A DNA stretch of 63,020 nt, counting the filler, from Perkinsus chesapeaki ATCC PRA-425 (lineage: Eukaryota > Protista > Perkinsozoa), in assembly GCA_013115145.1 (NCBI GenBank). It is 8 parts of 8 records of this genome, joined end to end, with 100 filler letters (N's around TTAATTAATTAA, not from the genome) between each part and the next. Parts side by side here need not be neighbours in the genome. Positions count along the whole stretch, not along the records: positions 14,489 to 22,534 come from JAAPAO010000995.1; positions 22,635 to 29,117 come from JAAPAO010001081.1; positions 29,218 to 53,429 come from JAAPAO010000548.1; 5 more parts are not named here. One strand, written 5' to 3'. Below the pieces are notes generated by a model, which saw nothing but the letters and a program-made list of their open reading frames with translations, had not been told where the DNA came from and made no database searches. Below are positions 10,349 to 46,973 of the stretch, piece by piece. Position numbers and translations under genes: made by a program. How positions within the stretch are numbered: the first letter of the stretch is position 1; each line of letters begins with the position of its first letter.

Positions 10349-10439
10349 TTGTCCAAGTAAGGGGGTTACTAAGCCACGGGGGGTCGCGAGGGGGGTCATC
10401 CGGATTGTTGGGGGCCCGCTTACTTGGGGATACCACGTA

Positions 10440-17600: not shown

Positions 17601-19667
17601 AAACGTTTTCAGACGAGTCTCAGACTTCAAAGAAGTACACATGTTGGAGATTCACCAACTCCGGTGAAGCGTCTTTCACACTTCATTACTCGAAAAACAC
17701 CAAGTCGCCTTTTAACGGGTGGAACTCCATCGCTTACGCTTATCGAAGGCCGTCATGATCTCATCGAAAAGAGTATCCAAAATATATCCGTCGTGCACGC
17801 TCAACCTCTTGACGAAACCGTCAGTGTCCACCGGGGGCTCGGTATCCACCTTGGACGAGGTGAGGGGCAAACGGAAGGGGAAACTTCGGGGTAGTGAATC
17901 TGAGGAGGAAAAAGAGAAATGTGGCATTTACAAATTTAACATGGAATGAAAAATTAAACAAGGGGGACTTATGGAAAATGCTGAAGACAGAAATAATTAG
18001 TAGTTTACGAAAGATAGGAAATGATTTCTCGAAATAAGGGGGGACATGAATCTGTATCACATCGGGAAAAGTTGTCGTAATAGGGAGGAATAAAGAGCGA
18101 AAATCAATGACAATACCAGCAGGGTGTTCAATAGCCACCATTACCAGGAATTAAGGAGCCCTCCTAAGATTAAATTTAGTATTTGAAAGCCGCTCTTGGC
18201 CGTGCTCTTGAGGTCTATTAAACGGCCCCAGGATCACCAGTGCGAGCAGACGTTGCGGCGATGATATTTTTCCCGGCAAATCTGTCAGTTTCCGCGAGTG
18301 CCCACATCTGTGCGTTTAGGAAACGTCACGGGCTCCGAATAGCTGAAGTTCCCCCTACTACGGCATGATTCCCGAAGCTCTAGTAATTGCACGCTCACAC
18401 AATTTTACGGTTTTTCCATCAGAAGTCCCCCTCCCTGCCACATTACCAAGCCTGTCCAGCCTCCAATCGATATTAGGTATCTCCAACATGTGCTCCGGTT
18501 GATTAACGGCCAGCTTGCTCGCCAACCCCGGCATCTCGTACGGCCTCAGCAACACCGGGCTCCCCTCGGAATTCTCAATTTTGCTCCAAACTTCATCGCG
18601 CATGGATTTCACCGCCTCTACAAGTCGGTCGAAATCGTCCTTCTCGGAATGGTCTCGGAATGCCGCCGTACAAGCCGCCAATTTCGTGCGTCGCTCCGCC
18701 CTCTCTTCTGTCATTTTTTCGGCCTCCGAGATCATTCCATCGATCACTTCTTCGTTTTCCTTATATAGGTCCGCGCTGATGACCAGCAGCCCATGCAGCG
18801 CGACGTAGACAGGCAGCTCAACATTGTGAACATCATCCGACTTCCGCAAGTCCATTAACTCCTGCATCGCCCCGAGGACCGTCTCGAACAGCACACAGCG
18901 ACAATTTGCCAACTCCACCAAAAATCTCATCAAAATTTTCATACTTAATATTGTGGAGCATTCCCCAAGGTGGCCGGCGGCGCGATCGACGAGCTCAGTT
19001 ACGAAGACTCTGTGCGGTCGAACTAGCAGACCGAGCCAGGCAGCGTAGACGGAGGTCTTCTGGGGGAGGTAGGTGACGCTGAAAATTGAAAGAAAAACAT
19101 TTATCGGTTCCTCCACTTTTTCTGAGCACGCGAAGAGATTGGTATCGGACTGAACACGTAGATGAGGGAAGCAACCCCGGAACGGTAAATTAATGAATAT
19201 TTGATGATGATACTTCAAAGAAGCGCTGACGACACATTAGTAGCTGTTGACTGATATCCACTTAGAGGCGTCGAAGGCTCTCATCGATACGATGCTGCTG
19301 CCGGAATTTTGACGGGGAATTAACCCCTTCTTGTGTTCTAGTAATAGCGAGCGAGGGGATCGAACCCACCACCTCTCCCATGAAAGCCACCAATGCTAAC
19401 CGTCTCACCATTCCATCACTGTATCTTGCATCACTTGTTTATGTGGCACTATATCCTCCTCCAGACCGATCGACAAGCCCTTCAGGTTGCCGGGGATCTT
19501 CTTCTTCTCCTCCCCGACTTTCACTATCTGACCAAATATCAAGCCATACCGCACTCGCAAGAATTTGAATCAGCGTTGAAATACACAGGGAAAATTACCC
19601 AGAATTTTACGCAAAATTCCGGAAAATTTTTACATCTCCCAGCAAAATAGGTTTCAGGCGCCACCAT
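14613..19667 (-). CDS. NCBP1: Nuclear cap-binding protein subunit 1 (CBP80, MIF4G folds), multi-exon
   Basis: Spliced exons give IVKVGEE..GNLKGLSIGLEEDIVPHKQVMQDTVMEC|VTYLPQKTSVYAAWLGLL, the conserved CBP80 N-terminus (intron 19408-19079). Later exons give FLAVHLISTDYKWDF and LRLSFHQNLV, corresponding to CBP80 WFSHHLSNFQFRW and RLSYHQRI. Both ends are approximate. Confidence 0.8.
19343..19402 (-). pseudogene. tRNA-like relic (Glu-like) in an NCBP1 intron
   Basis: GGTTAGCATTGGTGGCTTTCATGGGAGAGGTGGTGGG TTCGATC CCCTC GCTCGCT A TT lies just after the GTGAGA donor at 19408. Confidence 0.65.
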
Positions 19668-19739
19668 TTTAGGATATGATGAAGAGTGCACTGAGACTCC
19701 GATTCACACACCGTGGGCTGCAGTCAATGAATCACACAA

Positions 19740-20960
19740 GCGTGGCGAATTGGCATGTGAGATATGTCCCGTAAATTGCCAGCAGATACTCGCAAGGCTG
19801 AGTCGTTCTTTTCGGTGGACTATCTTCCTGTTGATGACTGACGATTGCAGCGCTTATTGTGCTCCATGATTCTGGCGAGATGACAGAAGGACATGATAAT
19901 TTGCGTGGCTGTGCTACAAGCAGGATTCTCCTGCTCAAGTGTCGCGAGAACAGGAGCCAGACTTGTGATGGCTGGGCCGAGTCGGCTTCGGCTTCTTAAA
20001 AAACGCTCTTAGAATAGGACCAATCTTTTATATCCCTCTTAAGCACATTCCACTATGCAGACGTTTACCAATTGTTCCCTCGGCTACGCCAAGAGTCTGC
20101 CCCTCGGAAGATTTTTATTTCCTTATCTTTGCGAAAGCACATCCGTTGCCGTGATCTCACGCGTATCAGATAGCACCTTCCTCATCTTAGCTTTTCTGCC
20201 GGCGTGGTGCAAATCTACAGGGTGTCCCAAGAAATGTGCTTCTTCTAATAACTTTTTGAGCAGGCAGATATCTCGACGACACGTGCGACGTTCGAAAGCT
20301 CTCGAGAGTGTCGTTCGCATGGTAGCCGGTTTTTTCGAATTTGAAAATTCAGATTTCTCGCCAACCACATTGACCATCATCATGGGTCTTATACCACTGG
20401 GACACCCCGCATAACGATCACCTTTATCTCTTTATATCGATGAATGACAAGTGTCTATTACCCTCTCTGCTCATCGTGTCGAGCAGTAGCGGCGCATTAC
20501 GTCACTGTAGGTGTAGTGATAGTATAATAAATGTTATTATAGAATACCCGGTATAGTAGTAAACTGGATAGGAAATATGCTACTAATAAAATAGTGATCA
20601 ACAAATGGCTGAACGGCGTTCTTTTATATAGCCTTGTCGATTCAATTATTTCCAAGCACTGAACCCCAACCCGAGCCTTGCCAGGCATTCATTTCACTGC
20701 GCCGCTTAAAGTGCAGGGTGCTTCGAGAATGTTATTGCCAACTAGCCCACCATTTTGATAGCTGTGTAGGGCTCTCGATAGTCCCGCTTCCGACTTGATG
20801 CCGATTTATGCACATTTGGCGCGCAGTCAAACATCACGTCATTCGTTAACATGCACTGCCTATGGCAGCCTGCCCTCCCTTTATTACCAACGCTCTTATC
20901 CTCTGCTCGTCCGGTGGCAGCTGTGATGCGTTCATCTTTTAAGAGCCTCAAAAACACAAC
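19740..20960 (-). CDS. Hypothetical protein, multi-exon, approximate
   Basis: Protein-like minus-strand ORF segments at 20742-20957, 20497-20688 and 20123-20383, separated by short gaps. No recognisable domain. Confidence 0.35.
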
Positions 20961-21511
20961 AACTAGTAAGAAGCCTCGCGGCTGATTGGGATGTTGATTT
21001 ATCGGTAAAATTCTGAGACTCCACTCATCGGGTCGTCAAGGGACGGATGCCGCAAAATATTGATTATTATACGGTACGGTGCACCGCCTTTGATGATGCC
21101 TACTAAAAGTGATACTATATCACTGATACAGTACACTTTAATTGTCAAATGGTAGGTGATGACGATATCGATAAGAAAATGAGGTATTCTTAACCATGGA
21201 AGCTCGAGTAATATTTTTAGGAAATTAACTAGTGATTATTATAATGAAAAACTTCATATGTTACTATGAACTATACTCAAACTCCCTGACAGACAGTTCC
21301 GATAAAATGGTTCTATTACCGATATAAAATTGCCAGGGAGTTGTTTACCCAGCAGTCGAAGGAATATCAAACGCGGCGGCCTCCTGAGGACCCCCTGTAG
21401 TAGTATTAACACCACAGCTATCAATTACAGTAGGAAACGCACTTATAAAGGAGGAGAAGGATGGATAATACTAGGATACTACAACAACAACACTCAACTT
21501 TCTACCAACGT

Positions 21512-22429
21512 CTACGTGCTCTTAACGGCAGCAGCAGAATCAGCCAACTTGCGGGCCTATGTGCAAAATTTTCCGATTAAAAATGAAAAGAGCGGTATTA
21601 CTTTCTCCGTTATAGCGCTCGGGGTAATACCAGCCGCCTTCAGTTGGTTCTCAGGCGTATCAGCTTCGTACCTAAAATTATCAAAATGTTCCACCCAGTA
21701 ATCGAACCCACGACCTTTCGATTGGAACACAATCTATAATACTTTATATATTATTTAAATTAACTTATTTATATCTTATCTTTTATTTATATAATTATAC
21801 CTATATATGATATCCCGTTATAATGGTAATAATCTGGTATTTATAACACAGCCACAGCATCCTCTCCACTCTATAGGATTCACTTCCCACAAAAAGTTCC
21901 ATTTCGACCGGGACCATGGTTAGTAAAAAACCATCAGATTCAACCGCAGTCTTCCCCCGACATGAAGTGGCATTTAACGGAGAAAAATCAGCGCCTAGGA
22001 TTTTCAGAGAAGAGTGAACTATTTTTAGTATAAAAAAAGCAGCTATAAAATGAAGCAGAAAATCGAAATCCACGGAACTTCCGTTGAACTGTGTTAAAAA
22101 AGCAATAAAAATCCCCCTGCCGAGGATCGAACCCGAGCCTCCTTCCTATTACCATTGATCAGGCACATGTATCGTGCCGACCTGCAACTTGCCATCTCCA
22201 AGCAATCCCTTAGCCGCCTGCAATCCATACTATCAACTTCATACCGCTCTCTCCGCATATTACCAAAAATTCCAGGACATGGGACCCGAACCCTCCGACA
22301 GAGCCCTCCTCGACAGTAACAAGAACGTCATGACCCTTCGCCAGAGAGGATATCATCTCCTCGTCCAGCGGCTTCATCCATCTGGCGTCAGCAACGGTTA
22401 CGTGATGACCGTACTTGGTCGATAGAAGC
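21512..22429 (-). CDS. dxs: 1-deoxy-D-xylulose-5-phosphate synthase, C-terminal exons (5' part lost in the gap)
   Basis: Exons 22429-22264, 22217-22153, 21671-21602 and 21556-21512 splice in frame to [114 protein letters not shown]. This is the DXS transketolase C-terminal domain. Confidence 0.92.
21683..21729 (-). pseudogene. tRNA 3'-half relic near the acceptor end of the 481-nt dxs intron
   Basis: TGTTCCA ATCGAAA GGTCGTGGG TTCGATT ACTGG GTGGAAC A TTTT. Confidence 0.7.
22107..22141 (-). pseudogene. tRNA 3'-half relic near the donor end of the 481-nt dxs intron
   Basis: GGCTCGGG TTCGATC CTCGG CAGGGGG A TTTTT; the T-stem still pairs 5/5 with wobbles. Confidence 0.75.
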
Positions 22430-22437
22430 CTGAGATT

Positions 22438-22534
22438 AATATATAAATGTAATGATATAATAATAATATATAAATGTAATGATATAATAATAATATATAA
22501 ATGTAATGATATAATAATAATATATAAATGTAAT
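22438..22534. repeat. AT-rich 27-bp tandem repeat (about 3.5 copies), intronic, cut by the gap
   Basis: Unit ATATAAATGTAATGATATAATAATAAT. Confidence 0.9.
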
Positions 22535-22634: not shown

Positions 22635-24855
22635 TGATTGACGTATTGGAGCCCGAAGAGTGCGTCAGGCGGTGCACCCCTGACAATCTTGCCACTGCCT
22701 TGTCTGCCAGGCGCACCTTTATATGGGCCCCGAAAGGGGGGCTTTGCCCCTTTTGTCGGTCCCCTTCGCATGGTGCATTCAAAGCCTTGGCTTGTCCGAA
22801 AAACGTGGTAGGAGAGCCCGGAGGCTGGGGATCCGTCCTTCGGACAGTGCGACGCCAGTGTCGCATTGAGACGTGTAGAAAAACGTGGCTCTGCACAAAA
22901 GACGCGTTCCTTGAGACATTGCCAGGATACATACGGCATAGTTTCAACTCGAGGTTTGTCATCTCTGGACATGCCCAGAACGCTGTGAGCATGGAGCCCA
23001 TTTTAAGGCTGAGACGAGGGTCTACCATCCAGGCTGAAGTAGATATCGCCGTGGGGCAAGAAAACTGTGCACTCCTTAAACGGAGAGAACTGTATGCCAG
23101 TACCGTTCTTAAATGGCGAAAAGAAAGCCTATGGCAAGGACTTGGCAAGCTCACGGCCTTGGAAGCTCCTGAAGTGGCGATCAAGGCGCCAACCCATACG
23201 CTCTCCTATTACTTGCTGCGGAATGGGTTTATCACCGACTATAGAAGAAATAAGCAGAGTCTCTTAGAAGAACTCTCCGCCTACCGGACGGACAACGTGC
23301 TAAAACTGGATCACAGCCGTCCAGCTGCCCGTAAATTAACCACCGCACATGCATCCGGGTACATATGTTGTATTATTGATGGTAATAATATCATCCACAA
23401 CATCGTTGTGACCGGAAGCACCTCCTATCATGACCTCGAGAATTGTTTCCGGGAATTGAAGCCCCGCATAAACATTGGGACCGAGAATCTGGTTATCTAC
23501 ACCGACAATGCGTGTTGTGGGAACGCTAGCAAAACTCTTCGGCGCGTTGTCTCCTCTTGCTGCCAAATCCCTGACGAGAAGATAGTGACGAAGTTAGATG
23601 TGCTCCACGCTATGCTTCGCCTTTCGCGGAGTTGTAACCTCCAGTCGCCACGATATCCGTTATTCTCTCGTGCACTAAGCCAAGCTATGCTGATCCCTTC
23701 GAAGGGGGATTATGATATTCTGAGGAGTGATCTGGCGAAAAAAAACACTCAATCCGAAGGCGATGAAGTGCTGAAGATACCGAAAAGCCTCCTGAAGCGC
23801 TCGATTCGGCGAGTAGTGCCTGACGCGGCGACTCTACAAAAACGACTGGAGCGGGTCACAAAATGCTATATGGCTCTAGATGCTGAGGCCGAGGAGTGTC
23901 ACAGTCCCGACTCCCGCCCCATTACTCTTCTCACGGATGAATTCTGGTTGAACTACAAAAGTCTTCAACACCACATTCTATCCTCATGCATCAGCGATGA
24001 TCCCTCCATGAAAATCTACATACCGATGGCTCTTATCGATGTCGAAGGTCGACGAGCCATTGCGAGTCTCGCCATTCTGCTATTCGACGTAATATGGCAG
24101 CAGTAAGCAGACTGGGGTTAGATTGCTGGGACGCTAGGTTGCTCTGGGATATCACCTTCGCTAACCGGAGGACCACTTCTGCAATGCTAGGGAACCCAGT
24201 TACGCCAATTCCGTTACGGAGTTGGCGGATATTGGTGGAGAAACAACTTGTGGTGACGCAAGAATAACTTTTGGTTCGGAGTACCTGCGGCAGCAGGACG
24301 CTAAGCTTTACGAGGATTCATTTCACGAGTGGATCTCTGAAAAAATGAATGATACTGTGGAGCATGGTAATTGCGAAGATACAGATGACAGCGACACAGA
24401 GTTTCTTGATGGCTCCGATATTAATGGCTTATCACATGCAGACCTCTGGGATGACCGCCAAACGGTATCCAAAAAAGATATTGATGCGGTTTATGAGGAA
24501 CTGATAACGTCCCCAAGAAAACGGTCTAAAGTTATGAGGCTCAAAGGAATGAGAGCGGCTACTCAAGTGGTGCCCTTGAGTAATTGGAGCCATGCCGTTA
24601 GGACAACGATCCACGATGTGATGGCATCTTTGCCGGCCGATCAATGCCGTCCTGCGCAAGTCTTCAAGGCCTACAGTAAAAAGGTTCTGGATGAACTAAG
24701 TCAAGCACTGAGCCGCAGTCCAGACGATTGTGTATCCCGGGTTGGCTTGCATCGTGTCTCGTTACACGACGTGGGGGAGTATATGCGGGAGTTGCAGAAT
24801 GCCCTAGCAGGAGCGGCCGTAACTGCAGACGGTGTGAAAGCGTTACAGAATCTGC
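22635..24855 (+). mobile_element. Dada-like DDE DNA transposase, 5'-truncated by the gap, with two frameshifts
   Basis: N-terminal CCCC finger (CPFC...CRIETC), IIDGNN (1st D), VIYTDNACC (2nd D), LDVLHAMLRL (DxxH) and SCISDDP. In the -1 frame follows YRCRRSTSHCESRH (catalytic E), and after a second -1 shift ITFGSEYLRQQ. The motif order fits Dada/MuDR-related transposases as recalled; this was not searched. Confidence 0.65.
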
Positions 24856-24992
24856 TGTTATGTCTGTCTACTTTGCACAATAACTCACACAATCCTTGTC
24901 TACCTATATCGATCACGGTATTACCTACATATTTCCTAGTTAATACATTAATATCTTATTCTACTAAATACTCGTGCCTTTGAGTTACTACA
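24856..24992 (+). repeat. Putative 5' LTR of retrotransposon 2 (137 bp, TG...CA)
   Basis: Starts TGTTATG and ends TACTACA. AT-rich; interrupts the transposase ORF; followed after one nucleotide by a TGG-starting PBS. Confidence 0.6.
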
Positions 24993-24993
24993 G

Positions 24994-25006
24994 TGGTGCC
25001 CAGACC
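24994..25006 (+). promoter_or_regulatory. Primer-binding site (tRNA-complementary, TGGTGCCCAGACC)
   Basis: The TGG start complements tRNA CCA. A 3' end of ...GGGCA-CCA fits His- or Phe-type tRNAs. Confidence 0.55.
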
Positions 25007-25015
25007 CACTCTACT

Positions 25016-25960
25016 ATGACAGCATCTGATACTACTATGACTTCATCAGCATCAACAAGTTCACACACTAGTCTACCACCTCCATTCCAAGGCCGTGCTG
25101 ACGAATCTATTGTAGAGTTCTTAACTCGTTATGGTCTATGTGTTCGAGCAAACGGCTGGGATGAAACTAAAGTGTGCTGGAAACTGTCGACATGTCTTAC
25201 TGGTCGAGCCTTACAAGTCTATCTATCTTTTGATGATGCTTATCGTGGTAATTATAATACTATTCGTATCGCTCTGTTATGCCATCTCATCAAGCCACCT
25301 TATCAGGCGGCTGCTGAATTCCGCGACCGCCACCTCGAGCCCGGTGAAAGTGTAGACACTCTATTGTACGACCTTAACAAGTTGTATTTTGAAGCCCATT
25401 TCGTCACTCCAAGTGCGGAAAAGGGTCTACCTGAGTTCGATAAGTTCGTGAAGCTCAACACTGACGCCAACTATCATCGAGACATGATTCTGAAAGTAAT
25501 GGAAGCTTTACCATCTCATATTGCAAGCCACTTGAGGGTTATGCAATTCACTACAGTTGACGAGGTGACTCGACAAGCTCGCATCGAGTTGGCTACGCAC
25601 CCTTATGAAGTCCCTATCGACGAGCCTAAATCTAGTAGCACATCACCTCCTGAGACAGAAGACCCTTTGGAGGAGCTTGCGGTGCTACGAGAAGAAGTTG
25701 CTGCCTTAAGACGTTCTAGCTTTGGTAAAGGTCGAGGACGCTACCGACATGGTCAACAATCTACTGGTTATGAGAGATCCAAGTATCGCCGACCAGGGCA
25801 AAAGAAATGGTGTACCTATCATAAAGCTACTACACATTGGACGTCTGAATGTAATGCTATCAAGAGACTTGCTGATCAAAGACAACCTAACTTTACGGCT
25901 ACTTCTGAAATGTCCCCAAACGGGGAAGAGGCGACGGATTTGATCGCACCGTCGTCTTAA
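25016..25960 (+). CDS. Gag of LTR retrotransposon 2
   Basis: PPPFQGRADESIVEFLTRY...GWDE capsid-like motif and a variant knuckle, WCTYHKATTHWTSEC (CxxHx4Hx4C). Confidence 0.85.
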   Translation: MTASDTTMTSSASTSSHTSLPPPFQGRADESIVEFLTRYGLCVRANGWDETKVCWKLSTCLTGRALQVYLSFDDAYRGNYNTIRIALLCHLIKPPYQAAAEFRDRHLEPGESVDTLLYDLNKLYFEAHFVTPSAEKGLPEFDKFVKLNTDANYHRDMILKVMEALPSHIASHLRVMQFTTVDEVTRQARIELATHPYEVPIDEPKSSSTSPPETEDPLEELAVLREEVAALRRSSFGKGRGRYRHGQQSTGYERSKYRRPGQKKWCTYHKATTHWTSECNAIKRLADQRQPNFTATSEMSPNGEEATDLIAPSS

Positions 25961-28900
25961 CTTCGCCAATTGCTAAAATCAAACTATCATGTTTGATAGA
26001 CACAGGCGCCTCGCGATCATTTATTGATAGTAATATTATTAATAAGTATAAATTGTCTAACTTCGTAAAGAAGTCAACTAAGCTTTACTCCTTCTCTATA
26101 CCAAATTCATATGTTCATACATCGTCATTTATCTCGTTATCTTTCTATATTGCTAATGATTCTTCGAAACAATTCACCCATCAATTCTTGATCGCAAATC
26201 TTGGCTCTCTGCCATCTTGTATTTTAGGGTATGACTTCCTACGGTCCAATGGTGCCACTCTCACGCTTGGTCAAGATCTTCCCCCACATGGACGCCTCGT
26301 CTTCGCACCTACCCAACAAGCCCAGAATGACTCTACTTCAACTCACGTTGGCAAACTACTCTCACCAAAAGCCTCACAACTACTATGTGGATGGAAACCA
26401 TTGAAGTCATCTCTAGGTGACTGCTTTCAATTTCGAGTTCGAGCTCTTCAAGATGGTGAACTTCGTGATACCCCTGAACAAGAATTTACATGTGAAATTA
26501 AATGGAATCTACAATCTCTCCCCGATAGTCTACGACGAAGCTCTGACTACTCCGTCCAGTTGATCGACAAATTATCACAGAAGGAACAAGACTTGTTTTG
26601 GAAAGAAGTATCTACATATATAAAGAAAGGATGGTGGCAAGAAGTTCAACAAGATCAATTACCCCAAGACGCCTTATGGGCAGTGTGTTTTCCAATAAAA
26701 CAAGAAGGACATTCAACTCCAATTAGACCAGTAGTTGATCTAAGAAGCTACAATAGTGCCATCAATACTACTTCATCATATAATGGTCCGTCTACAATCG
26801 ACATCCTGAACAAGATGAGATGTCAATATAAGAAGAATGATGAAATTATGGTCCTAGATTTATCGAAATGCTATTATAAGTTCCGTACGGTGGATCCTCT
26901 ATATATTAAGGTTGGTGGTAAAATATATAAATGTCATCGGATGTCTTTCGGTCTGGTATGTGGAGCAAGTGCCTTGGAAGAAGCCACCCACCACTTTGAT
27001 GAAGTAACCAAAATATTGCCTACCACACAAGATGTTACCTTCCAAGCATGGTATTATGATGATCTTACACTACTTGGTAAAAGCCTAAATCACCACGCTG
27101 ATGGTTTAAGTGAATATGCAGCAGTTCTTGGCTGGGAGTTTCCTATATCTAAACGTCACCATCTAACATTTACAGAAGGTCATGATAATGAATGGATATC
27201 GCATCTAGGCTACTTTGTACGTATATCTAATGAAGGTCAATTACAATATCGGTGTAAAATAAAACAAACAAAGTCTTATGATTATGATCTTCTAACCAAA
27301 AGAGAGGTATATGCTATTGCTGGTTGTTTTGTTGATGGTCTTCGGCTGCATCCAGAATGCAGAAGTCTGGCTGACATACTAAGGATCTATGCCGGCCAGC
27401 AATCAGCGTGGGACCAACCAATATCTGATCCTACACTTAGGAACTTTCTCAACGAGACCATCGGTGTCCTTCTGTCATATCTACCATCAACGTTATGTAT
27501 ACATCAAGCTTCGTTCCAAGGGAACTCGCTGTCTGTTTATGCTGATGCTTCATCTTATGCCTATGGTTATTCCATCGTGGTTGATAAAGATATCCTTGAA
27601 GAAGCTTCAAGACGTTGGCATAAAAGAGAGATCTACTGGCACATTAACCGCAAGGAGACGAGAGCCGTCGCTGAAGCACTAGCAAGAGTCTTAATCTGGT
27701 ATGAAAAATATGGTTTACAATGTTCTACAGTTGATATTTATACTGACAGCAGTACAGTGGTGAAATGGTGCACTGGTGCTTCTATGAATTTGAAGACGAA
27801 GTCGCTAGAGCGGCAAGCTTTGAACCGGTTATTAACAATAATAAGAGAGCATATCGATTACTTGGGCGAGCGCAATGTCTCTATAGCGTTTCATCTTATT
27901 GGTACCGCTGACAATTCAAGAGCTGACTACCTTTCTCGGCAACCATGGGCCCCAACTCCACCGGACTATCTTTCTGATTTGGCTATACTTGCTCCAATCC
28001 GAGTGTGTTCTCAAGGACATCCTCATGAACAGCATCTGTCGAAGAAATACCATAACGACAAGGATCTACAAGAATTGGTTCAAGCTATTGATGAGAAGAA
28101 ATTATCTGCACAAGTACCACTGGTTTGGCAACGTTTTTTCTGGCAGCTATCAACAGCCGACGGTATTATCTATCGTACATATGTTCCGGCTGACCTAGGT
28201 TATCAAGTGACAGTGCCAGTTCCTGATAAATCTCGCAGATATTATATCATCGAGAACACTCACAACAACATCAATCATTTGGGTATCAAAGCAACTAGAA
28301 GTGAGATATGTAAGAGCTATTTTTGGCCTGGTATGAGCTCTGATATTGTAAACTTCATAGCGGCTTGTCCTGTATGCTTGGTTGTCAAACCACCTAATCG
28401 TTCAGTAGGACATCATGGACGGATTGGCTCCCAAGTTAATCAACCTCTTGACCGAATTTATATTGATGTTACACATCCACATCGACTATTACGGCCAGTT
28501 CTAACGGTAATGGATGCATTCTCCAGATTGGTCTTCGCCTTCGAATTGAAGCACGGTGAATCATCAAGAGATGTGGTGGAAGCTTTGAATGTCATTTTTC
28601 GTTTGCATCCAGGTATAAAAGAGATATATTGTGATAACGGTCAAGCCTTCAAATCTACTGAGTTCATCAACTTCATCAAGAGCAAGAATGCATTCATCAA
28701 GTACTCGGTACCACATCAACCTCAAACCAATGGAGTAATTGAAAGGTTTCATCGACTTCTGCGACAATCTATTCTATGCCAACAGCTGACTAACCATCCA
28801 CCTTCCTCAGCGGGAAGTCTTAGTCATAATGAAGTTCTGCGGTGGATGAATAATGCTGTTCATATCTACAATTCAATTCCACATGGTTCACATGGTCTTA

Positions 28901-29117: not shown

Positions 29118-29318
29118 NNNNNNNNNNNNNNNNNNNNNNNNNNNNNNNNNNNNNNNNNNNNTTAATTAATTAANNNNNNNNNNNNNNNNNNNNNNNNNNN
29201 NNNNNNNNNNNNNNNNNCTACAAATATTCAAGTAACACGCTCCGGACGGTAATCCCCGAGTAAACTGGGTCAACTACGTTAACCTGTATTTTAATATTAT
29301 TCGTAGATGGTTCTTGAA

Positions 29319-30921
29319 TAGGTCAAACCAGGTCTGTGGGAGCGTCTAACAGAAGCGGCTATAAGCCAATGGGAAGAGTTAATACGAGGAGAGATTCCTA
29401 GTGTGGCAGTACAGTACTTGTCAGCTGTAGCGGTGATAGATGGTGGGGAAGGTCGTGGGTTCGATCCTGGCATGCTGCATTTTTAGATCATTTAATATCG
29501 CATGGATTGCCATCGGCAAATACACAGGATTTCGCATCGGCAATGTGTACTGTGTTATTGGAGAAAGGCAGTCAGCTTGATACGAACCTCGCCGCGAGGG
29601 CTATAGCGAGTCTTGGAAAACTGCACAGGTGATAATGAATATGATGTTCATTATTATAATAATATAATATGGGTATATTTTACTGCAGCACTCCTTTAAC
29701 CAGGCAGGCCGATACAGAAGTACTGAGCTGCCAACGCTAATTTATCTGTCTTCGTATGTCTGTATTTTATTCTTTATTTATTATCATCTCCATGCGGGGG
29801 AAATCGGCAAAATATTGCGGTTTCGATTCTGTGCTTTTTGTACCTCTGGTTCGTGTAAAGCTCTGGTGAGGGAAGTGGTATGAAGGACTTCGAAAAGTGT
29901 TTTTGGTAGCGTTCAAAAATGTTACTGTGCGCACATGTTCCCGTGAGAAATTGTAAATTTTAGCGGCTGTCGTTGGAGGTGGATCGGTCATTGGTGATGT
30001 CTTATGATAGATATAATGAAGCGGTGTGGAGTCCTTTGATGGATAATATAATGAATAATATAGACCAGTTGAGGGCAGATCATATAGGACAGGTGGTGCT
30101 TATACCAGGGTTTAGTGGTGATTGTAGGGTCTAAGGGAATGATAAATCATGGCAACATGAGATGGGCGTTTAACTATATACTTTACTTATAATTTTATAA
30201 CTCATCCCTCCGAAGGGGAATACTTTACGGATACTTCGTCGTGCACGCATCGACCTTAGATTCGGTCACATCTTGCATCATTTTCACCATTCTTTTCATA
30301 TACGGTATCACTGAACCCGTTCGAGGGTTCTGAAGGCATGCTTTCCCTTTCTTTACGTATTCTGGAGGCAGGATTAACAATAATTTCGTAAAATAATTAA
30401 TTCGATCCAGATTTATTTTCTTTATTTTACGTGGGGCTTCGGTTTTCCCATTAGTTTATATCAACTGCTCCATGGTAGAGTGGTGCATCCTCTCTTTTGG
30501 GCATTTCGTGGCGCGCGGTAATGGATACGACGGTGGGTTCAGGTATCCTTGGGGATAGCTAGAGCAGGACGAGCTCACCCGCTGGCAACCCCACTGCTCG
30601 CCGGTTTGTCTGCGAGAGCGATTAGTATAATAGTCGAGTTTGATGCATGGTGTGTTGCGAATACAATGCAGGGGTAGGTCGTGGGTTCGATCCCGGGGAG
30701 GGGCATTTTAATTGTTTAGATTTGCCGCGCTTGGCAAGCGAGATGTTAAATTATTCAGTGCTTTTGCTAAGCATCTTGCTAAGAATGAGAAGTTGTTGGA
30801 AGATGCTACTTCTCAAGGATTGGCTGGAATATTGCATTCGATGGCGAAGGTTAAAATAAAGTACTATACAGGAATGGGTGTCATTCTAATTTCGAAGGAG
30901 ATATTGGAGAAATCGGTATGA
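29319..30921 (+). CDS. Helical-repeat protein (OPR/HPR/RAP-type), multi-exon; middle exons unresolved, may be two genes
   Basis: The in-frame splice at 29443-29486 gives ...AVAVID|DHLISHG... and the splice at 30674-30719 gives FDAWCVANTMQG|FAALGKRDVKLF. ATSQGLAGILHSMAKV resembles OPR/HPR repeat cores. Confidence 0.5.
29443..29486 (+). other. 44-nt intron consisting of a tRNA 3' half
   Basis: GT GGGGAA GGTCGTGGG TTCGATC CTGGC ATGCTGC A TTTTT AG; removing it restores the reading frame. Confidence 0.75.
30674..30719 (+). other. 46-nt intron consisting of a tRNA 3' half
   Basis: GT A GGTCGTGGG TTCGATC CCGGG GAGGGGC A TTTT AATTGTTT AG; removing it restores the reading frame. Confidence 0.75.
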
Positions 30922-33048: not shown

Positions 33049-34557
33049 ATGTCTAAAACGTTCTCGCATTTTTTCAGTTTCTTTATTGGTATGGTGGCAT
33101 CAGAAGCGTCTCGGTCACGACGGCGCAGTCGCCTGGTAGGGATCAACGACTCGATATTTTTTAGTTTTTGTGTTAGCCGATATTCTCTGTGTTTGTCGGT
33201 GTGGTTGTGACGATTATGTTAATTAATGGTTGGAGTGCAGTGAGCAAAGCAATGCTGTCGATGGATGGGAAAATGAAACTTGGTAGGATTGGGGACTAGG
33301 AATTATTATATTATTGATAGGAAATTGGCCGAAGGGATCTGAGCATAAGTTCATGCCGTTGAGGTCGCAAGTGAGCTATTTTGACCCCTCTGGTTTGAGG
33401 ATTGGCCATGCGTGGGATATCCATAGGTGAGTGGGGAAGGGTGTTGGTTTGTTCATCGGAAGGTCACGATTGACGATGGGTTCGATTATTGGTTGAGGCT
33501 ATTTAGATTCGGTCGTCGTACTGCAGAAAATGGACCTCTTCTTTTGGCGGGCGTCGAGGTCCCTGATTGTCCTGACTTGGGAGTGGTTGCTCATTCCGAT
33601 GGAGATGTAAGTCTGGAGTATTTCACCCCGAAGGCGATAGGAGGATGTGCTTCGTCTCGGAGAAGCGCTATCAAATATCTAGCTGTGAATATCTCAAACG
33701 TTGGAGGAAATTTCTAGCGAAATTCATTTATCATTTCGCCCTGTTTTTTTCCATTTGTATTCCTTATTATTATTGTCATCAGGTAGTCTTCCACAGTGTT
33801 ACTGATGCAATCCTGGGAGCAGTCGGTTTGAGGGATATCGGCCAATACTATCCAGATACCGATCCCGAATGGTAGGCCCTTTACGATTAGAAATCTGTTG
33901 GTGACCACGATATATCCGCACCCCTTTTGCATTTCTCATTCGCCACAGAATTACGAGGTCAATGGAAATTCGATCAATATAAATGTTGATAGCAATTACT
34001 CTGGTATTGCGGTTGTCACAGTGAACTGCGGCTTAGTTATCTGCTGAAATTACGAGTTCACTGCGTCATCGGTGCTCATTATAAATAATGTTGAGCTTCG
34101 TGTTACCCGTTTCTGTTCAGGAAAGGTCAATCGTCTGATCGATTTCTCCACGATGCTTTGAGAAGAGCGTCTAGATTGGGTTACCGCGTTATAAGTGTCG
34201 ACGTGACTTTGGTATTAGAACGTCCAAAGGTTGGAAAGATTATGCCGGATGTGGTTGATGGATTAAAGGCAGCGATCGGCGACAATCGGGTAAGAGAACT
34301 GTTATCAAGAGATTTGTCGGCTGTGTGGTCTAGTGGTATGATTCGCGCTTCGGGTGCGCGAGGTCCCGGGTTCGATTCTCGGCTCAGCCCTTCTTTTATT
34401 GTCTCAGGCTTCCGTGAATGTTAAGGCACGCACATCAGAGAAGCTTAACGCCTCTGGAGAGGGGAAGTCAGTCGAAGCTCATGCTGTGGTAAGGTTTGTT
34501 TCATTAATGCTAATGATGGCATGTAATCTGCGCTATGGTTCTCGGTATTGTCGGTGA
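33049..34557 (+). CDS. ispF: 2-C-methyl-D-erythritol 2,4-cyclodiphosphate synthase with an N-terminal targeting leader, multi-exon
   Basis: Spliced product ...[11 protein letters not shown]|FGRR...VVAHSDGD|[30 protein letters not shown]|KGQSSDRFL...[18 protein letters not shown]...|[28 protein letters not shown] has all the IspF motifs. The leader has a basic region and a hydrophobic stretch ([29 protein letters not shown]). Start is 33049 or 33091; the last exon is uncertain. Confidence 0.92.
33472..33506 (+). pseudogene. Degenerate tRNA 3'-half relic at the acceptor end of ispF intron 33427-33506
   Basis: GATGGG TTCGATT ATTGG TTGAGGC T ATTT AG. Confidence 0.5.
34319..34390 (+). tRNA. trnP-CGG: tRNA-Pro(CGG), nested in ispF intron 34290-34407
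   Basis: GGCTGTG TG GTCTAGTGGTATGAT T CGCGC TTCGGGT GCGCG AGGTC CCGGG TTCGATT CTCGG CTCAGCC C forms a full cloverleaf with one U-U acceptor mismatch, followed by TTCTTTT. Confidence 0.9.
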
Positions 34558-34630
34558 CCACACGCATCTCTGTAATATCCTTACTTTACACTCCGACTAT
34601 CACAGCCTGACAATTTCAGAGTTATTTGTC

Positions 34631-34663
34631 GTCCATGGTTCAATTCCCGGGACAGGTACTTTT
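34631..34663 (+). pseudogene. tRNA 3'-half relic just downstream of ispF
   Basis: GTCCATGG TTCAATT CCCGG GACAGGT A CTTTT. Confidence 0.5.
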
Positions 34664-37439: not shown

Positions 37440-40400
37440 CTTTGTCTCCTTCAGTGAGTACAAGATTCGGAGCAAAACTGGCATCCAAGAAGGCAATCGA
37501 TCTCGACCCTAATATCACTACATATGCTAGATTTGCTGATACATTCTATCCAAACCAGAACACTTGGCATCTCTTATCGGAGAGTATGTGATTTCTGTAT
37601 CGCCAATGACTTCATCCCGAAGCTTACTCTTCCATTTTGTGGTCATTCATTGGTGATTGGGTCATCATTTGTTATCTTGTATAGTATTTAATCTGTCTAA
37701 CATATGTTGAAAAAATTGACTAAAGCTGCTTAAAGCAAAAATACTAAATAGTTTACGACTGCCTTTACTCTTATTATTTCCTTGTTTTCAAGGCTATGTC
37801 TTTTTCCAATTAGAAGTTTTTCAAAGCTGTAAAATTAATTTTGATACTCGTTGAGATACGTGACTTCCTGCATAATTTCTGTTTGCGGGGATCAGCCAGG
37901 TCGCTTCTGGGAGAAAGCAACCTTTTCTTCGTGATTTTTGGCTCAATGGTTTGGTGGTAGAAAAATTTCTGGGCTTCGCCGAAATTTTCGATGCAGTTTC
38001 ATAAATTCACGGCATTACTGATCAATTACCGATCCGTTTTCAGCGAGCTTGAGTTTGGACAGCTGAATTGATCTAGCCAAACATATCGAGACTGCTTTTT
38101 TTCATTCAGATATCGACCAAGAAGTGTTCCTGGCACATGTTCTATATAAGAATGAAGCTGGCACCGCCCTGGATGATACGTCGTAAGAATAGCCTACTAA
38201 TTGCTATCTGCATAATAGTCGTAGCTGCCATTATTGCACCACTTGCTTACTTCCCCGAACTTGTTCGAAAGAGAGTATTGTGAGACATAAGAATATAGTG
38301 TATTAAATCCCATCTCAGCCCCGTCTCCGGCCACCTCTGTGGGATCACACCCCTTCAGCTCCAGCGAAATAAGAACTCTTTTTCGGGTCATTTCTCAACT
38401 GAGATCTCAGATATGCTTTGGTAGCTCTTACCAGCCTAAAGCTTGGCTTGACTAAAGCTTATTTGTTGTATGATTTCGACGACAAATCGTCAAATGACAA
38501 TTATCTTCACTTGAGCGCACCATTATCATTTACTGGCTCATTACCAGGTATATTATTCAGGTATCTTCAAGCATGGCGTGTCGATCCTGGTGGTGACTCC
38601 GAATGGTCAGTTCTTCTTAAACGGTCATTGTCATGCCCGAGTGTGGTGCTTACTATACCCAATAACGGACCTTATGTGAGTGCATTACCAACTATATAAA
38701 TGCAATGGAAAAATTATGAAAAATTTTGATAGAATATTTATTTTCGAGCCGCTTTTACAGTATCTTTGCCATTCAGGTTTACGAGGCCCGTCCAGACACG
38801 TCACCGGGCAATAGCCAATTCCACCAAGAATGCAGTTGTACATCTCAAAGGTGAGTTTCAAACCCGCCCCTCGACACGGCAGTTTCTCAGGTTGGAAAAC
38901 TGCTTGAGAGCACCGCAGTTCCGCTACTTTGCGTCTAACGTATCGGCATCGCCACTAAAATCTATTTATTTGACAACATCAACTGGCCTCATTTCTTCAC
39001 GAATGGTAAGTGCGACGTAAAATTCCCAAAAATTTCCTATTTTTTCAATCTTCGCTGCAACTACTGTGGAAGTTGGTGTCCCTAAGAGAATGCTGTTTTT
39101 CAGTACTCCCTGCAAGATGGGGTATCGGCGCCAATCGGGGTGGAGCTCCTTCGCCGAGGGACCACACAGGTGGATGAAGTTGTGGTAAGCTGGCTGATGA
39201 CAATTACTTTTTCAATAGAGATTGTGGTGTAGACAATGTAGGCTACATCACATATGCCTCGATTTCATAGAGCTTTCTCCATCCGAATTTTATAAGTAAT
39301 TTCTTTGCAGCTCAGCAGAGCCGTATTCCCTGCCTCGATTTCCTGTGTACATATTCCTGGTTTGTTGTCACTTGGTTAACCTGCTTGTTGTCAGCTCTTT
39401 AATCACAGTTGGCTATCGTTTTCCTCCGATACTTGGACTCGAGAAAAAAAGGACGCGGCTGCTAATTCGAGTAAGCTTCCTGTTCTAGGACAGTGTAGCT
39501 TGAATGGCTTGAAGTGGCAAATAGGAATCTGAGAAGGAGTTATGTCAGCAAGTTACGTACCGTAACAAAATTATGATTGACGATCGCCGAAATCAGAGAC
39601 AATTCCGTTTGATCGGCGGCCTGCTGTGATAGTATATCCATGAGCTTAGGTTAGGCGATGAGCTTTTATCGGCCGCTATGCGTGATGCTATATTTTTGAG
39701 CGCCGGAATGCCTCACAACTCAAACTGCTAATCTTTTTGTGGCGATTTGGTATTTTCTGTTGGAAAACCCTCGATCCAATTTAAGATGACGTAAGGGTAT
39801 CTGATTCCTGGTCCTTTTTACCTGTAAGAACTCTTCAATGTCAAGTAAGGCATTGGATGAAAATAGGATTTACGGGGATTACTCAACTTGACCTCATTCG
39901 TATCTTTGTGTGCATGCGTGCATCGATTATCGTCCGCATTCTCTTCAGTCTGTTGTGATGGTAAGGGTACTTATCTCGGGGACAGTCCTCGAGTACCCGA
40001 CCTGTCCGCGGAGTCTTGCCGAGCAGAAGCCGATCCTGCCGCGACCAATCAGTAAGAAGCCCGCGCAAGTTCGAATCCCACAGATGTCATTATTAGATCT
40101 AGAGTATTCGGGAAGTGGGTTGTTGTCAAGGATGACTACTGTGACGTGACAGCCCAGTACAAGAGCTTGCTTCTGTCAAGTAAGGAAAATCCATGTAGTT
40201 GAGGAAACAAAAAATGAGAGCAGTTTGTTCGTTACCGTTTGTGGCTCCGTCTGCTATTATTCATACCGATTCCCCCGTACAATCAGACTAGTACGTTCCT
40301 GAGGCAAGATTTCTTCGGACTTTTTTGTGTAATAAAAAATTTAAAAAAAATTAAATATTTTTTTGTGTCTCATAACATTGTTGTTTAGATGCGAAAGGTA

Positions 40401-43400
40401 TGATAGTTATCACCAACAGAACGGCTCAACCTAATAAGGATTATCAGGTCAGTAGATTATGATGCTGATACTCGACACTTCGACTTGAAAAAAAAACTGA
40501 AATTTACGAAAAATAGTGAAATACTTTTTGCACGACTTCGTACTATTGCGTATAACAAAATTACAAATTATCTTGTTGTCTTTAATCATTGCAGTAGCAA
40601 TTCGCCGCATCTAGTTGCAAAGACGTTTATTAGTATATAATTACACAGTAATGTAGAAGTCTATATAGTTAGCGACTTCACCTTGTACCTTTTCATTAGT
40701 GTTTATTATACATATCAATCGGGAGCGTGAAGTCCATAAAGTCTTTGTAAACACTAAAGAGCCAATAAAGCATTCTTAATCTCTTGTCTACTTCATTTAC
40801 TCCGATGCAACTCGACTCACCGTCGAAATGTCTCCATCTCCACTTCCAGGTTAACGTCTATCCCACAGAGGCTTCTCTGATGACGATGCCATTGGTAAGT
40901 TGTAAGCCATCTCCGCTACTTGATTGATTACTTCTAGCTGGTGATTGATTCTGCAAGTGAAATCGCAGTGCAGCTGCTGGAGAAGTTCAGCTCTGGAGTT
41001 CTACGAGTGTAAGTAGCGCTCGCCCAGTTGATCGATTATATCTTAATTTCAGTGAGATCTCCGATGAAGCGGTTATTGGAGTCACACCTGGCCTGGCTAC
41101 GGTGTACTCTATTGAAGCTGGTTTGCGTGTTTATGACACCGGCAAAGGGGCAAATGAGAATAACAGTGTTGGGCATTATAAGAATATATTCGACAGTGCT
41201 CCTGGTGGTGGACTTGTTTTATGGATGGAACACAGTGAGTATCGATAAGTATCCGACGAAGAGGAGCATTCGATATTATTTCGATACCTTAACTCAACTT
41301 ATCAGACCGAATCTACTTGATGAAATTTGACTATCGCATCTTCGTTGCCGGTAGATTGCGGCTGATCACATTACTTAGTTTAATAGTTATATTTCTACTA
41401 ATAAATCGAGGACACACAGCCTGTCGTGAATATTAAATTACCGACCGAGCGAAGCGAGCGGAGCGTCTAGTACCACTTCACTATCACCTTGTGCGTGCGT
41501 GCGAACTGCAAATTATCCAGCAGCTCGATAATCTAGAAATGTTATGAGTACATGCTATGCACCATTCGATAGCTCTTGCTCTGGGGATACTAGCAAAAAT
41601 ACGAAAAGTGGCTCCTGATTCCATCTTGAAGGTTCACGGGCCCAAACAATTTCTCCGCAGAGAAATGACAGACCTGAGGATCGAACTTGCGTCCATCTAT
41701 CAGAAATTACTGATGATTCGCCGAGCTCGGTCCCTCCTTCAAGAAGGCCTGGTTATATATTTTGTAGCGGTATATTTTATTGATATACGCGACAAACAAT
41801 GGTCGAAATTCCCTGTCCAATATTCCGTGCCACTCGACGAGTCTTGTAGTTTGCGTTATTAGGTGATGAAAGATCTCTGCTCTTTGTTTGCATTCGTGAC
41901 GAAGGTGACCCTAATAAATCCGAAGGTCGAATTCATATATACGATACGGCTAGACCGATGGTGGATGTCACATTAGTAAGAGCTATTAGCATCACTTATC
42001 ACCGTTTACCATAACTGGACCTACCGGCTTGGTATACGTTCGTTGAGGTTTGGTCATCAGAAACCATGGCTCGAGGATGACAGGCTCTGTAGCAAATAGA
42101 AGTACTTGAAGAAGTGTATTAACTTCTAAACTTGCTCGAGTTCGTCTTTCTGCCGAGTCATCTGTGATTTTATTATACCTGATGGAGCGATATCATTCCA
42201 GCAACCTTTTTAGGTCTACACTGTACCGGGCGATCTTAAGTGCAGAAATAACGATTTCCACGATGTGCATATAATTGACAGAAAAGTGACCGCGGCGCAA
42301 TGTCCCGGTAAGTACGTAGAGTAGATCTTACCGTCTTGAGTCGCACCATATCAAACAAACACCTTTGCGGAAGTAGGAACCAGAGAGCGAGCATTTTCTA
42401 ACTTGTAGTGTTAGGATGCTTCGTTTCAGGAATCAGCGGTGTGCAAATGTATGTCACCACAGTGCTGGATCCTAATGACAAGAATCGGATATATTATTAT
42501 GACACAACCGACATACGAAGTAGGACTTGTTTTATAGATCGGATAGAATCACGAGTTTCAGAAAGGATTCATTAATTTATGATTTTATCAATTTTTCGCC
42601 TTTTTTCTCTTCTAAGTTCATATAAGATCTCCCGCGCTGGTGGGTTCTTGATTCGACCTTTTTCATCGTTAATCTGACTCGCGAATTAGCTGTTCTAATT
42701 TTGATGGATTTTCACTATTTGCTGTATCCTCGTGGTAGGTAGCCCAGGTGGATGCGTGAAGTTACGCGATTTGGTTTTCTGTGCTTTATTTTTTAGGTTG
42801 GAGAATGCTCCGTGAGATACACGCTGACTGGGAATCATCAACCGATGGCCTTGGCAATGTCAGGTGAGTCTGTGCAAGATTGTGTCGTATTTCTGTCCCT
42901 CTATATGATTTATCAATATGTTTAGTCGAATCGTAACAACAATTGTTAATGTCATCCTTCTTCTGCCGACACTAGTAGGTATTAGAGACACGATCACTTT
43001 GTGAAATTCGCTTTTTTTGGGTACAAGGTAGTAGCCTACGTCAAAAGTTGTATATTCGAAATTGAGATCAGTTTTCAAATGAAGGGGAGTGTTGCTGTCA
43101 TTTTTTAATATGTATATTCACGTATAGTGTTCTGGTGATGAATTCACTCGGGCAACGCCACAAGCGTCTCCGTCTCCCTCTGCATGGCATTGAGCCTTCC
43201 TTATCTATGCTTGATCGTATCTGGAGTCAATGAAAGCATGCGGGCATCTTGTCCTTTGTATTTTCTGCCGCCTCAGATATACTCCCGATGGCCTTTGGCA
43301 TGCAGTTACTTGGCATTGCGATAGTCGGTAAAGATAATTGTATATTACCTTGCTCATAGATGGTTCAGATGGTGCGGAGACAACTACGGCGAGAAGCTCT

Positions 43401-46400: not shown

Positions 46401-46450
46401 CGGCAGCACGCAGTGAGATCGCTCGGGTGCCGTCCTTCAACAGTGTTAAT
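37440..46450 (+). CDS. Several intron-rich hypothetical genes, not resolved
   Basis: Numerous short exon-like ORFs flanked by GTAAG/GTGAG..YAG, mostly on the + strand. No recognisable domains. Confidence 0.25.
40052..40096 (+). other. 45-nt intron consisting of a tRNA-Ser-like 3' half
   Basis: GTAAGAA GCCCGC GCAAG TTCGAAT CCCAC AGATGTC A TTATT AG. Removal gives the open frame ...ADPAATNQ|SRVFGKWVVVKDDYC. Compare the real tRNA-Ser end GCCCGCGAGGGTTCGAATCCCTCAGGTGTCG. Confidence 0.7.
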
Positions 46451-46908
46451 TAAGGTTCATCCAAAGGATGACTTCGGCTGTGTAAATGAAATCTTGACGT
46501 TGTGACAAGCATGATATTGTTGTGAAAATGAAGTCTTCCGCGTGCAATTCGGTGTTGTTCTGTTCACAAAGTAAGGAGGAAACGGAAAAGTGAGCATACT
46601 GTAGAAAAAACAAGAAACATGAAAAGTACCAAAACCACAACACTTGCGATTGCGGGAGGCTGCCCGATAACAACCCTACTTGCATTGGAGCTTAAAAACC
46701 GCACTTGCGTAAGTTGGGTAACATACTTGATGAGGGGAATAAAAGGATTAATGTTGAGTGTAAAACCAGCTCGAATGCTCAACGCGTATTATGTCATTGA
46801 ATGAGACGGAAGCGTGATAATGGGTGACGTTAGTCAGATATGACACGTAGGCAACTGTGACCAGATTCGATTGTAGATAATCAGCCTATTCAGACTTGAT
46901 ACCATCTT

Positions 46909-46973
46909 GGTCGTTTAACTCAGCTGGATAGAACGGATCAGATAGTCGTAGATTCGAATCGTGCACCCGGTAT
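46909..46973 (+). pseudogene. Degenerate tRNA pseudogene (A-box and B-box kept, anticodon arm lost)
   Basis: GGTCGTT TAACTCAGCTGGATAGAACG ... GTAGA TTCGAAT CGTGC ACCCGGT A TT. Confidence 0.5.

What the first reader, a model, noticed from the sequence alone, without database searches (positions are those of the whole stretch)
19343..46973. Dispersed family of tRNA 3'-half (B-box) relics embedded in spliceosomal introns of unrelated genes
Seen: at least 8 elements share exact tRNA 3' geometry: T-loop TTCRAY(Y) + 5 nt + 7 nt + discriminator (usually A) + T-rich tail. They are at 19343-19402 (NCBP1), 21683-21729 and 22107-22141 (dxs), 29443-29486 and 30674-30719 (helical-repeat gene), 33472-33506 (ispF), 34631-34663 and 40052-40096. 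The seven in modelled introns are all in the sense orientation of the host gene. Their 7-nt acceptor-strand segments all differ, which suggests several different tRNA ancestors rather than one SINE. T-stem pairing is mostly lost while the B-box bases are kept. An intact tRNA-Pro sits in another ispF intron. Established: the B-box is the TFIIIC binding site, and isolated B-boxes (ETC sites) organise chromatin in yeasts. Inference: this may be an undescribed system. Options are intron-embedded TFIIIC anchors, tRNA-derived introner-like intron creation where the Pol III oligo-T doubles as the polypyrimidine tract, decay of intronic tRNA genes, or intron-released tRNA halves.
Basis: partly seen in the sequence, partly recalled or inferred. 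Interest (0 to 1): 0.88.

Follow-up and report, generated by a model that had tools for sequence, protein, structure and literature searches.

The report
tRNA tail fossils filling Perkinsus introns
Eleven worn-down back halves of tRNA genes lie in this stretch of the clam parasite Perkinsus chesapeaki, ten inside introns and four making up almost a whole 44-49-base intron; they are likely leftovers of tRNA genes that landed in existing introns, which would show tRNA DNA being recycled into splice signals.

Summary
The elements are real: the T-loop + 12 nt + TT pattern occurs 8 times against 0.7 expected. The window is Perkinsus chesapeaki. I find 11 relics, 10 in modelled introns; one host intron is spliced in RNA contigs of two studies. 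Four relics fill 44-49-nt introns. Corrections: two further relics are antisense (8 of 10 sense, p=0.11); the T-run abuts the acceptor in only 5 of 10; five copies share one core, so ancestry is partly common. No target-site repeats, no A-boxes, no cloverleaf. P. olseni gene models break at the same position for three relic introns and the tRNA-Pro intron, so these introns look older than the species split. A published survey lists no introner family in this species. Best reading (0.5): dead intronic tRNA genes whose introns shrank back to minimal size, the terminator reused as pyrimidine tract. Unexplained: positions 44-51 are near-invariant while the T-stem partner is lost (p=1e-5). The scan's earlier AI notes report the same in P. 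olseni; I found no paper describing it.

The parts
19343..19408 (-). Relic at the donor end of the 330-nt NCBP1 intron 19408-19079; core family with 1 mismatch; tRNA positions 44-73 = 19374-19345
   Evidence: P. olseni protein runs contiguously across the junction (MEC-VTYLPQ)
21683..21716 (-). Core-family relic 15 nt before the acceptor of dxs intron 22152-21672
22107..22141 (-). Relic 11 nt after the donor of the same dxs intron; T-stem still pairs (3 Watson-Crick + 2 GU)
29443..29486 (+). 44-nt intron of the helical-repeat gene: GT + core-family 3' half + TTTTT + AG
   Evidence: P. olseni protein aligns across the junction without a gap
30674..30719 (+). 46-nt intron of the same gene, filled by a core-family 3' half; related pieces exist elsewhere in the genome with unlike flanks
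   Evidence: table 7 (11 contigs diverge before 30676, 7 after 30710)
33427..33506 (+). 80-nt ispF intron, spliced in RNA contigs; core split by 9+1 inserted bases, with a likely second decayed core at 33436-33456
   Evidence: tables 4 and 8; (15 of 21 matches; 8 of 125,998 positions reach this)
34319..34390 (+). Intact tRNA-Pro(CGG), sense, in the 118-nt ispF intron 34290-34407; the intron without the tRNA is 46 nt
   Evidence: junction from protein homology, not covered by RNA contigs
34629..34663 (+). Relic in the middle of the 339-nt last ispF intron
40052..40096 (+). 45-nt intron of FOL47_008484 filled by a Ser/Leu-like 3' half (24 of 30 identical to the window's tRNA-Ser)
41663..41695 (-). 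Additional relic, antisense, inside the 628-nt intron 41235-41862; shares CGCAAG and TGTCA with the 40069 relic
46916..46973 (+). Additional relic outside modelled introns; the only one with an A-box-like stretch (46916-46930), too close to the B-box for an intact tRNA
   Evidence: no tRNA hit in Rfam
47111..47192 (-). Intact tRNA-Ser(GCT) between a GT at 47216 and an AG at 47101 (116 nt); host gene not established
   Evidence: searches gave no usable host protein
55921..55969 (+). Additional relic (55934-55963, + strand), antisense, filling a 49-nt intron of the dynein heavy chain gene on the - strand; tRNA 3' end at the donor
   Evidence: (13-intron chain open over 887 codons)

Best explanation
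These are fossil 3' halves of tRNA genes inside spliceosomal introns, likely left when tRNA genes from a very large, fast-turning gene pool inserted into existing ~45-nt introns, died, and were cut back by deletion. Shown: tRNA register, intronic position, loss of the cloverleaf and A-box, splicing of one host intron, and an intact tRNA-Pro in the same arrangement. Inferred: insertion just upstream of an intron's T-rich tract gives a ~118-nt intron like the Pro one (118 - 72 = 46 nt). After the gene dies, one deletion from near the donor to the variable loop returns the intron to the 38-51-nt size class. In sense orientation the 3' half would survive because its terminator now serves as the pyrimidine tract. 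The relics would then be passive, apart from supplying spacer and splice-site bases.
For: Register and excess over chance. An intact sense tRNA-Pro ends 17 nt before its acceptor, as relics do at 6-15 nt. 25 of 69 modelled introns are 38-51 nt and only 2 lie between 52 and 97 nt. P. olseni models break or read through at the same position for ispF introns 33427, 34290, 34489 and for 41235. No junction repeats: 2.3 nt against 2.27 in 59 other introns. Both orientations, donor-end, acceptor-end and mid-intron positions, and at least two ancestral types. No Rfam tRNA hit for 3 of 3 relics tested alone; 7 of 7 relic-bearing strands folded no better than shuffles. The ispF intron is spliced although insertions break its core. 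tRNA-Pro is highly repeated (bin depth 16,941 against about 100). P. marinus has over 500 copies of five tRNA types and Dada transposons that insert in the A-box (PMC3706591).
Against: In the four intact core copies, positions 44-51 differ from their majority at 1 of 32 bases while 10 of 16 T-stem partners (62-65) are unpaired (Fisher p=1.2e-5; the group was picked by that shared core, which inflates the contrast). Even decay of ordinary tRNA genes does not predict this. Four of 10 relics fill minimal introns against 2.6% under random placement (p=8e-5), so the model needs repeated deletions. None of the four mini-introns has evidence on its age. In a divergent genomic copy only 2 differences are listed in the 45-nt relic intron against 22 in 167 flanking exon bases, but the table showed 40 of 253 rows. 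No 5'-half-only relics were found, though the A-box scan is weak.
Confidence: 0.5

Rival explanations
1. The relics are 5'-truncated reverse-transcribed copies of U-tailed pre-tRNAs or of a short tRNA-derived master element with an already broken T-stem. They would prime at genomic T-runs, land next to splice sites, and in some cases create a new mini-intron.
For: No CCA in 11 of 11 and a T-run after position 73 in most. 5' ends vary (donor at tRNA positions about 10, 33, 37, 42). Five copies share one core. About 11 other contigs match 30676-30710 with unlike flanks (agreement 0.45). Four introns are little but the relic. A master with a broken stem would explain the asymmetry. A Polarella introner family was auto-labelled 'tRNA' though finally classed as DIRS.
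Against: No target-site repeats. Positions 62-72 are only 33-38% identical among core copies, poor for one master. Three relic introns look shared with P. olseni. Zero introner families are listed for P. chesapeaki, P. marinus and P. olseni; those surveys favour young families (my recall). Known tRNA retrocopies without tails are 3'-truncated with target-site repeats (PMC5322556).
Confidence: 0.27
2. The variable-loop to T-loop motif has been co-opted and is under selection, either as an intronic TFIIIC anchor (ETC-like) or as a splicing element in the pre-mRNA.
For: Conservation asymmetry. 8 of 10 lie within 35 nt of an intron end (null 0.28, p=0.0009; cut-off chosen after seeing the data). 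Few listed differences in the 45-nt intron in the divergent copy (table truncated). Intronic tRNA look-alikes enhance splicing in human cells (PMC7722341).
Against: The B-box was the search criterion, so its retention is circular. Positions 44-51 lie outside the B-box (own knowledge). The ispF intron splices with a broken core. Only 9 of 69 introns hold a relic. Human nimtRNAs need the cloverleaf, which is lost here. B-box enrichment in introns over exons is marginal: 9 to 1 (p=0.048) for one pattern, p=0.23 and 0.27 for two looser ones.
Confidence: 0.17
3. The introns are sources of stable 3' tRNA halves released after splicing.
For: Four sub-50-nt introns are nearly pure 3' halves, three of them sense.
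Against: Stems are broken, no fold beats shuffles, two relics are antisense, and acceptor strands are not conserved. No small-RNA data were available.
Confidence: 0.04

Closest known systems
Intronic tRNA genes and pseudo-tRNAs of Caenorhabditis elegans (PMC4999229; passages read)
   Same: Live and dead tRNA genes nested in Pol II introns in both orientations; 44% of 609 tRNA genes and 95 of 211 pseudo-tRNAs are intronic, and 56% of intronic tRNAs are sense.
   Different: Here only 3' halves remain, four fill whole 44-49-nt introns, and five end at the acceptor's pyrimidine tract. The passages read describe no such position effect.
Introners (PMC9860276, PMC12130899; passages and supplement rows)
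   Same: Dispersed related sequences making up whole short introns in unrelated genes.
   Different: No target-site or terminal repeats, low similarity beyond a 16-nt core, both orientations, and some host introns shared with P. olseni. These surveys list 0 families for Perkinsus; 'tRNA' does not occur in either main text.
tRNA-derived SINEs and tailless retropseudogenes (PMC5322556; passages; SINE features recalled)
   Same: Dispersed tRNA-derived copies without a cloverleaf.
   Different: Those keep the 5' part or both promoter boxes and have target-site repeats; these keep only the 3' part and have none.
Dada transposons of Perkinsus marinus (PMC3706591; sections 8 and 10 and passages)
   Same: Same genus; they insert in tRNA A-boxes, which would kill the gene from its 5' side, and in zebrafish they join fragments of different tRNA genes.
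   Different: No Dada sequence is shown next to any relic here; they are a possible cause, not the element.
nimtRNAs, human intronic splicing enhancers (PMC7722341; abstract and passages)
   Same: tRNA look-alikes in introns linked to splice-site use.
   Different: They are of mitochondrial origin, full length, and need the cloverleaf.
ETC/COC TFIIIC sites of yeasts (recalled; one search gave only a search listing)
   Same: A B-box without an A-box.
   Different: They are defined by TFIIIC occupancy without Pol III, untested here. These relics also keep tRNA register beyond the B-box.

Membership tests
Intronic tRNA pseudogene | tRNA-derived sequence in tRNA register | tested here: met
Intronic tRNA pseudogene | Lies inside an intron of a protein gene | tested here: met
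   10 of 11; one intron by RNA contigs, the rest by protein homology, annotation or open frame
Intronic tRNA pseudogene | Cannot form a functional tRNA | tested here: met
   ARAGORN and Rfam call only Pro and Ser; folds no better than shuffles
Intronic tRNA pseudogene | Evolves neutrally | tested here: inconclusive
   A broken core is tolerated at 33479, but conservation is asymmetric; no orthologous intron DNA was available
Introner | Target-site duplication or terminal inverted repeat (present in only part of the known families) | tested here: not met
   Junction repeats 2.3 nt against 2.27
Introner | Many highly similar introns | tested here: not met
   Identity 33-38% over positions 62-72; survey lists 0 families for this species
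Introner | Intron absent at the orthologous site in relatives | tested here: inconclusive
   Appears present in P. olseni for 3 of 9 relic introns and the Pro intron, from gene-model breaks only; no data for the four mini-introns
tRNA-derived SINE | Head with both A- and B-box | tested here: not met
   An A-box pattern lies beside only 1 of 11 relics
tRNA-derived SINE | Dispersed copies with unrelated flanks | tested here: met
   table 7
tRNA-derived SINE | One consensus over the whole body | tested here: inconclusive
   Core shared by five copies, 3' part divergent, a second Ser/Leu-like type present
Tailless retropseudogene | 3'-truncated RNA copy with target-site repeats | tested here: not met
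   Relics are 5'-truncated and lack repeats
ETC site | B-box without A-box | tested here: met
ETC site | TFIIIC bound without Pol III | not testable with these tools
   Needs ChIP; none of the 12 papers listed mentions TFIIIC
nimtRNA-type splicing enhancer | Intact cloverleaf | tested here: not met

The most novel reading that the evidence does not exclude
Perkinsus builds new spliceosomal introns from tRNA: U-tailed 3' halves of pre-tRNAs, or a short master derived from one, are copied into genes and spliced out as 45-nt introns in either orientation. This would be an intron source that needs no transposon and that introner surveys miss because the copies come from many templates and are old.
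Probability: 0.2. Interest if true: 0.85.

Novelty: new variant of a known kind. Interest (0 to 1): 0.52.

Why it matters
Four of 25 minimal introns here (16%) are tRNA DNA from end to end. Under the best reading, tRNA gene turnover is rewriting intron sequence and splice signals in a lineage at the base of dinoflagellates. Under the bold reading, it is an undescribed source of new introns. Three sequenced Perkinsus species make the question directly testable by comparing orthologous introns. It also warns that such introns can confuse tRNA and repeat annotation.

Tried and rejected
No whole genome was held, so no genome-wide test was run. Both metagenome scans found nothing, so no orthologous intron DNA was seen. 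RNA contigs covered only ispF; lack of cover elsewhere says nothing. Reads were laid on 29218-40300 only. ARAGORN at relaxed thresholds gave noise (12 to 186 calls). An apparent Ser D-arm upstream of 40052 is coding exon: rejected. The A-box-like start of the NCBP1 relic uses two exon bases and the donor and matches neither A-box scan: unproven. An Asn-like anticodon arm in the ispF intron (by recalled tRNA sequences) is explained as well by a tandem second core: dropped. T-loop A58 as branch point: poor fit to the recalled U2 consensus, untested. Weak candidates not counted: 38862(-) in a 40-nt intron (11.2), 50504(-) (14.9), 30261 (10.8), 62024, 12751. Relic mini-introns are no richer in pyrimidines before the AG than others (8.0 against 7.9 of 12). 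The host gene of tRNA-Ser stayed unresolved (Atlas unavailable). Copy estimates from depth (about 950 for tRNA-Pro, about 25 for the 30676 piece) are rough and are not copy numbers.
Full report
Organism and data. An ispF exon and a second exon match Perkinsus chesapeaki proteins at 100%. An RNA contig carries a Perkinsus-type spliced leader. No whole genome was held and both metagenome scans were empty. All counts therefore come from this 63-kb window, plus contigs of four coded runs laid on 29218-40300.

GTTCRANYC-N12-TT occurs 8 times against 0.71 in shuffles, and a stricter form 5 times against 0.21. Among B-box-only hits, 7 of 8 have A at position 73 (p=0.0008), which supports tRNA register without using the tail. 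A profile trained on the 8 listed elements and the two intact tRNAs finds three more at scores 17-25, where resampled windows give 0.15 hits at 16 or more. None of three relics tested alone hits the Rfam tRNA model, and no relic strand folds better than shuffles. None has CCA (0 of 11).

Gene context. I modelled 69 introns in six genes from stored proteins, RNA contigs and an open dynein frame. Ten NCBP1 introns are approximate, and the last introns of FOL47_008484 (beyond 45409) are not in the set. Ten of 11 relics are intronic, in 9 introns. The 80-nt ispF intron is spliced in RNA contigs of two studies; the others rest on homology or annotation. Four relics fill introns of 44, 45, 46 and 49 nt (4 of 25 minimal introns; 2.6% expected by random placement, p=8e-5). 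Eight of 10 lie within 35 nt of an intron end (p=0.0009, cut-off chosen afterwards). Eight of 10 are sense (p=0.11) (all). The T-run abuts the acceptor in five. Two sit at donors of long introns, two mid-intron, and one antisense copy fills the dynein intron. Enrichment of bare B-boxes in introns over exons is marginal (p=0.048, 0.23, 0.27 for three patterns).

Ancestry. Three relics share AGGTCGTGGGTTCGAT exactly and one with a mismatch (7 matches at up to 3 mismatches against 0.43 expected). The ispF copy has the core split by 9+1 bases that a divergent genomic copy lacks (table 4). Two others are Ser/Leu-like. About 11 contigs elsewhere match the 30676-30710 piece with unlike flanks. So there are at least two ancestral types, one of them a dispersed family.

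Age of the host introns. Five P. olseni models join a foreign exon exactly at the acceptor of the ispF relic intron. Three carry extra residues at the tRNA-Pro intron, and one reads through and one stops at the last ispF intron. One reads into both ends of the 41235 intron. This is indirect, but it suggests these four introns predate the species split. There is no such evidence for the four mini-introns. Junction repeats are no longer than at other introns. Published surveys list zero introner families for P. chesapeaki and P. marinus and none for P. olseni and P. marinus.

Mechanism, inferred. The intact tRNA-Pro sits sense, 29 nt after the donor and 17 nt before the acceptor; without it the intron is 46 nt, the common size here. 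tRNA genes are highly amplified: the Pro bin has depth 16,941 against about 100, and P. marinus has over 500 copies of five types (PMC3706591). I infer a cycle: insertion into a minimal intron, death of the gene (Dada insertion in the A-box is one documented route in this genus), and deletion back to minimal size, with the terminator kept as pyrimidine tract in sense copies. How the genes insert is unknown; priming of U-tailed pre-tRNA at T-runs would fit but is untested.

What this does not explain. In four core copies positions 44-51 differ at 1 of 32 bases, while 10 of 16 T-stem partners are unpaired (p=1.2e-5; group chosen by its core). A broken-stem master, chimeras joined at the B-box, or selection could each give this. 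Against strict function, the ispF intron splices with its core broken. For constraint, only 2 differences are listed in the 45-nt intron against 22 in 167 exon bases, but only 40 of 253 rows were shown.

Known systems. Intronic tRNA genes and pseudogenes are ordinary in nematodes (PMC4999229, passages). Introners (PMC9860276, PMC12130899: passages and supplement rows; bioRxiv 2020.10.14.339549: term search only), tailless retropseudogenes (PMC5322556, passages) and nimtRNAs (PMC7722341, abstract and passages) each fail or leave open a defining feature. ETC sites are recalled and untestable here. Nine searches of the open library aimed at this listed no paper on tRNA-half introns in Perkinsus. 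The Perkinsus genome paper did not appear in those listings, two supplement files of PMC12130899 were not searched, the PMC9860276 file was cut, and bioRxiv supplements are closed. Isotype labels other than Pro and Ser, and SINE and ETC features, are recalled.

Earlier notes of this scan (AI-written, unchecked) report the same pattern, in both orientations, in P. olseni and other Perkinsus windows. Two look-ups naming P. chesapeaki found none holding all words. They gave me the nematode paper and the 'older intron' wording; I do not count them as support.

Verdict. A real feature; most likely a new variant of intronic tRNA pseudogenes that remodel minimal introns (0.5). A tRNA-based route to new introns is not excluded (0.2). 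Interest 0.52.

Noticed in passing
window 33083 (ispF 5' end): One RNA contig carries a spliced-leader-like loose end before 33083, close to the published Perkinsus leader. ispF is therefore its own trans-spliced gene, and the public model FOL47_008482 wrongly fuses it to the upstream helical-repeat gene.
   Followed up: partly
window 29400-40200: A DNA run holds a second, divergent copy of this region (about 82-90% identical in the pieces listed). Over about 38600-40200 only the divergent copy was laid. A homeolog or old duplication.
   Followed up: partly
window 22637-24983: Two long intronless ORFs with no Pfam hit; a DxxH-like motif seen by eye suggests a DDE transposase, possibly Dada-like.
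   Followed up: no
window 24968-29117: LTR retrotransposon gag and pol ORFs (protease, RT, RNase H, integrase), cut by an assembly gap.
   Followed up: partly
window 14400-22534: dxs followed by NCBP1 on the - strand; the same order is implied in P. olseni by a fused gene model.
   Followed up: partly
window 35748-36400: ORF on the - strand with about five tandem copies of a 20-residue repeat; no Pfam hit.
   Followed up: no
window 10287-10360: Long near-perfect hairpin with a weak miRNA-precursor match far below the family threshold.
   Followed up: no
window 14389, 22535, 29118, 53430, 57071, 59002, 61651: Seven N-flanked linkers show the window is a join of separate contigs, so gene order across them is not real.
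   Followed up: yes
PMC12130899 supplement file 8, row 695: A Polarella glacialis introner family of 1,709 copies was auto-labelled 'tRNA' but finally classed as DIRS-like; worth checking for tRNA 3' halves.
   Followed up: no
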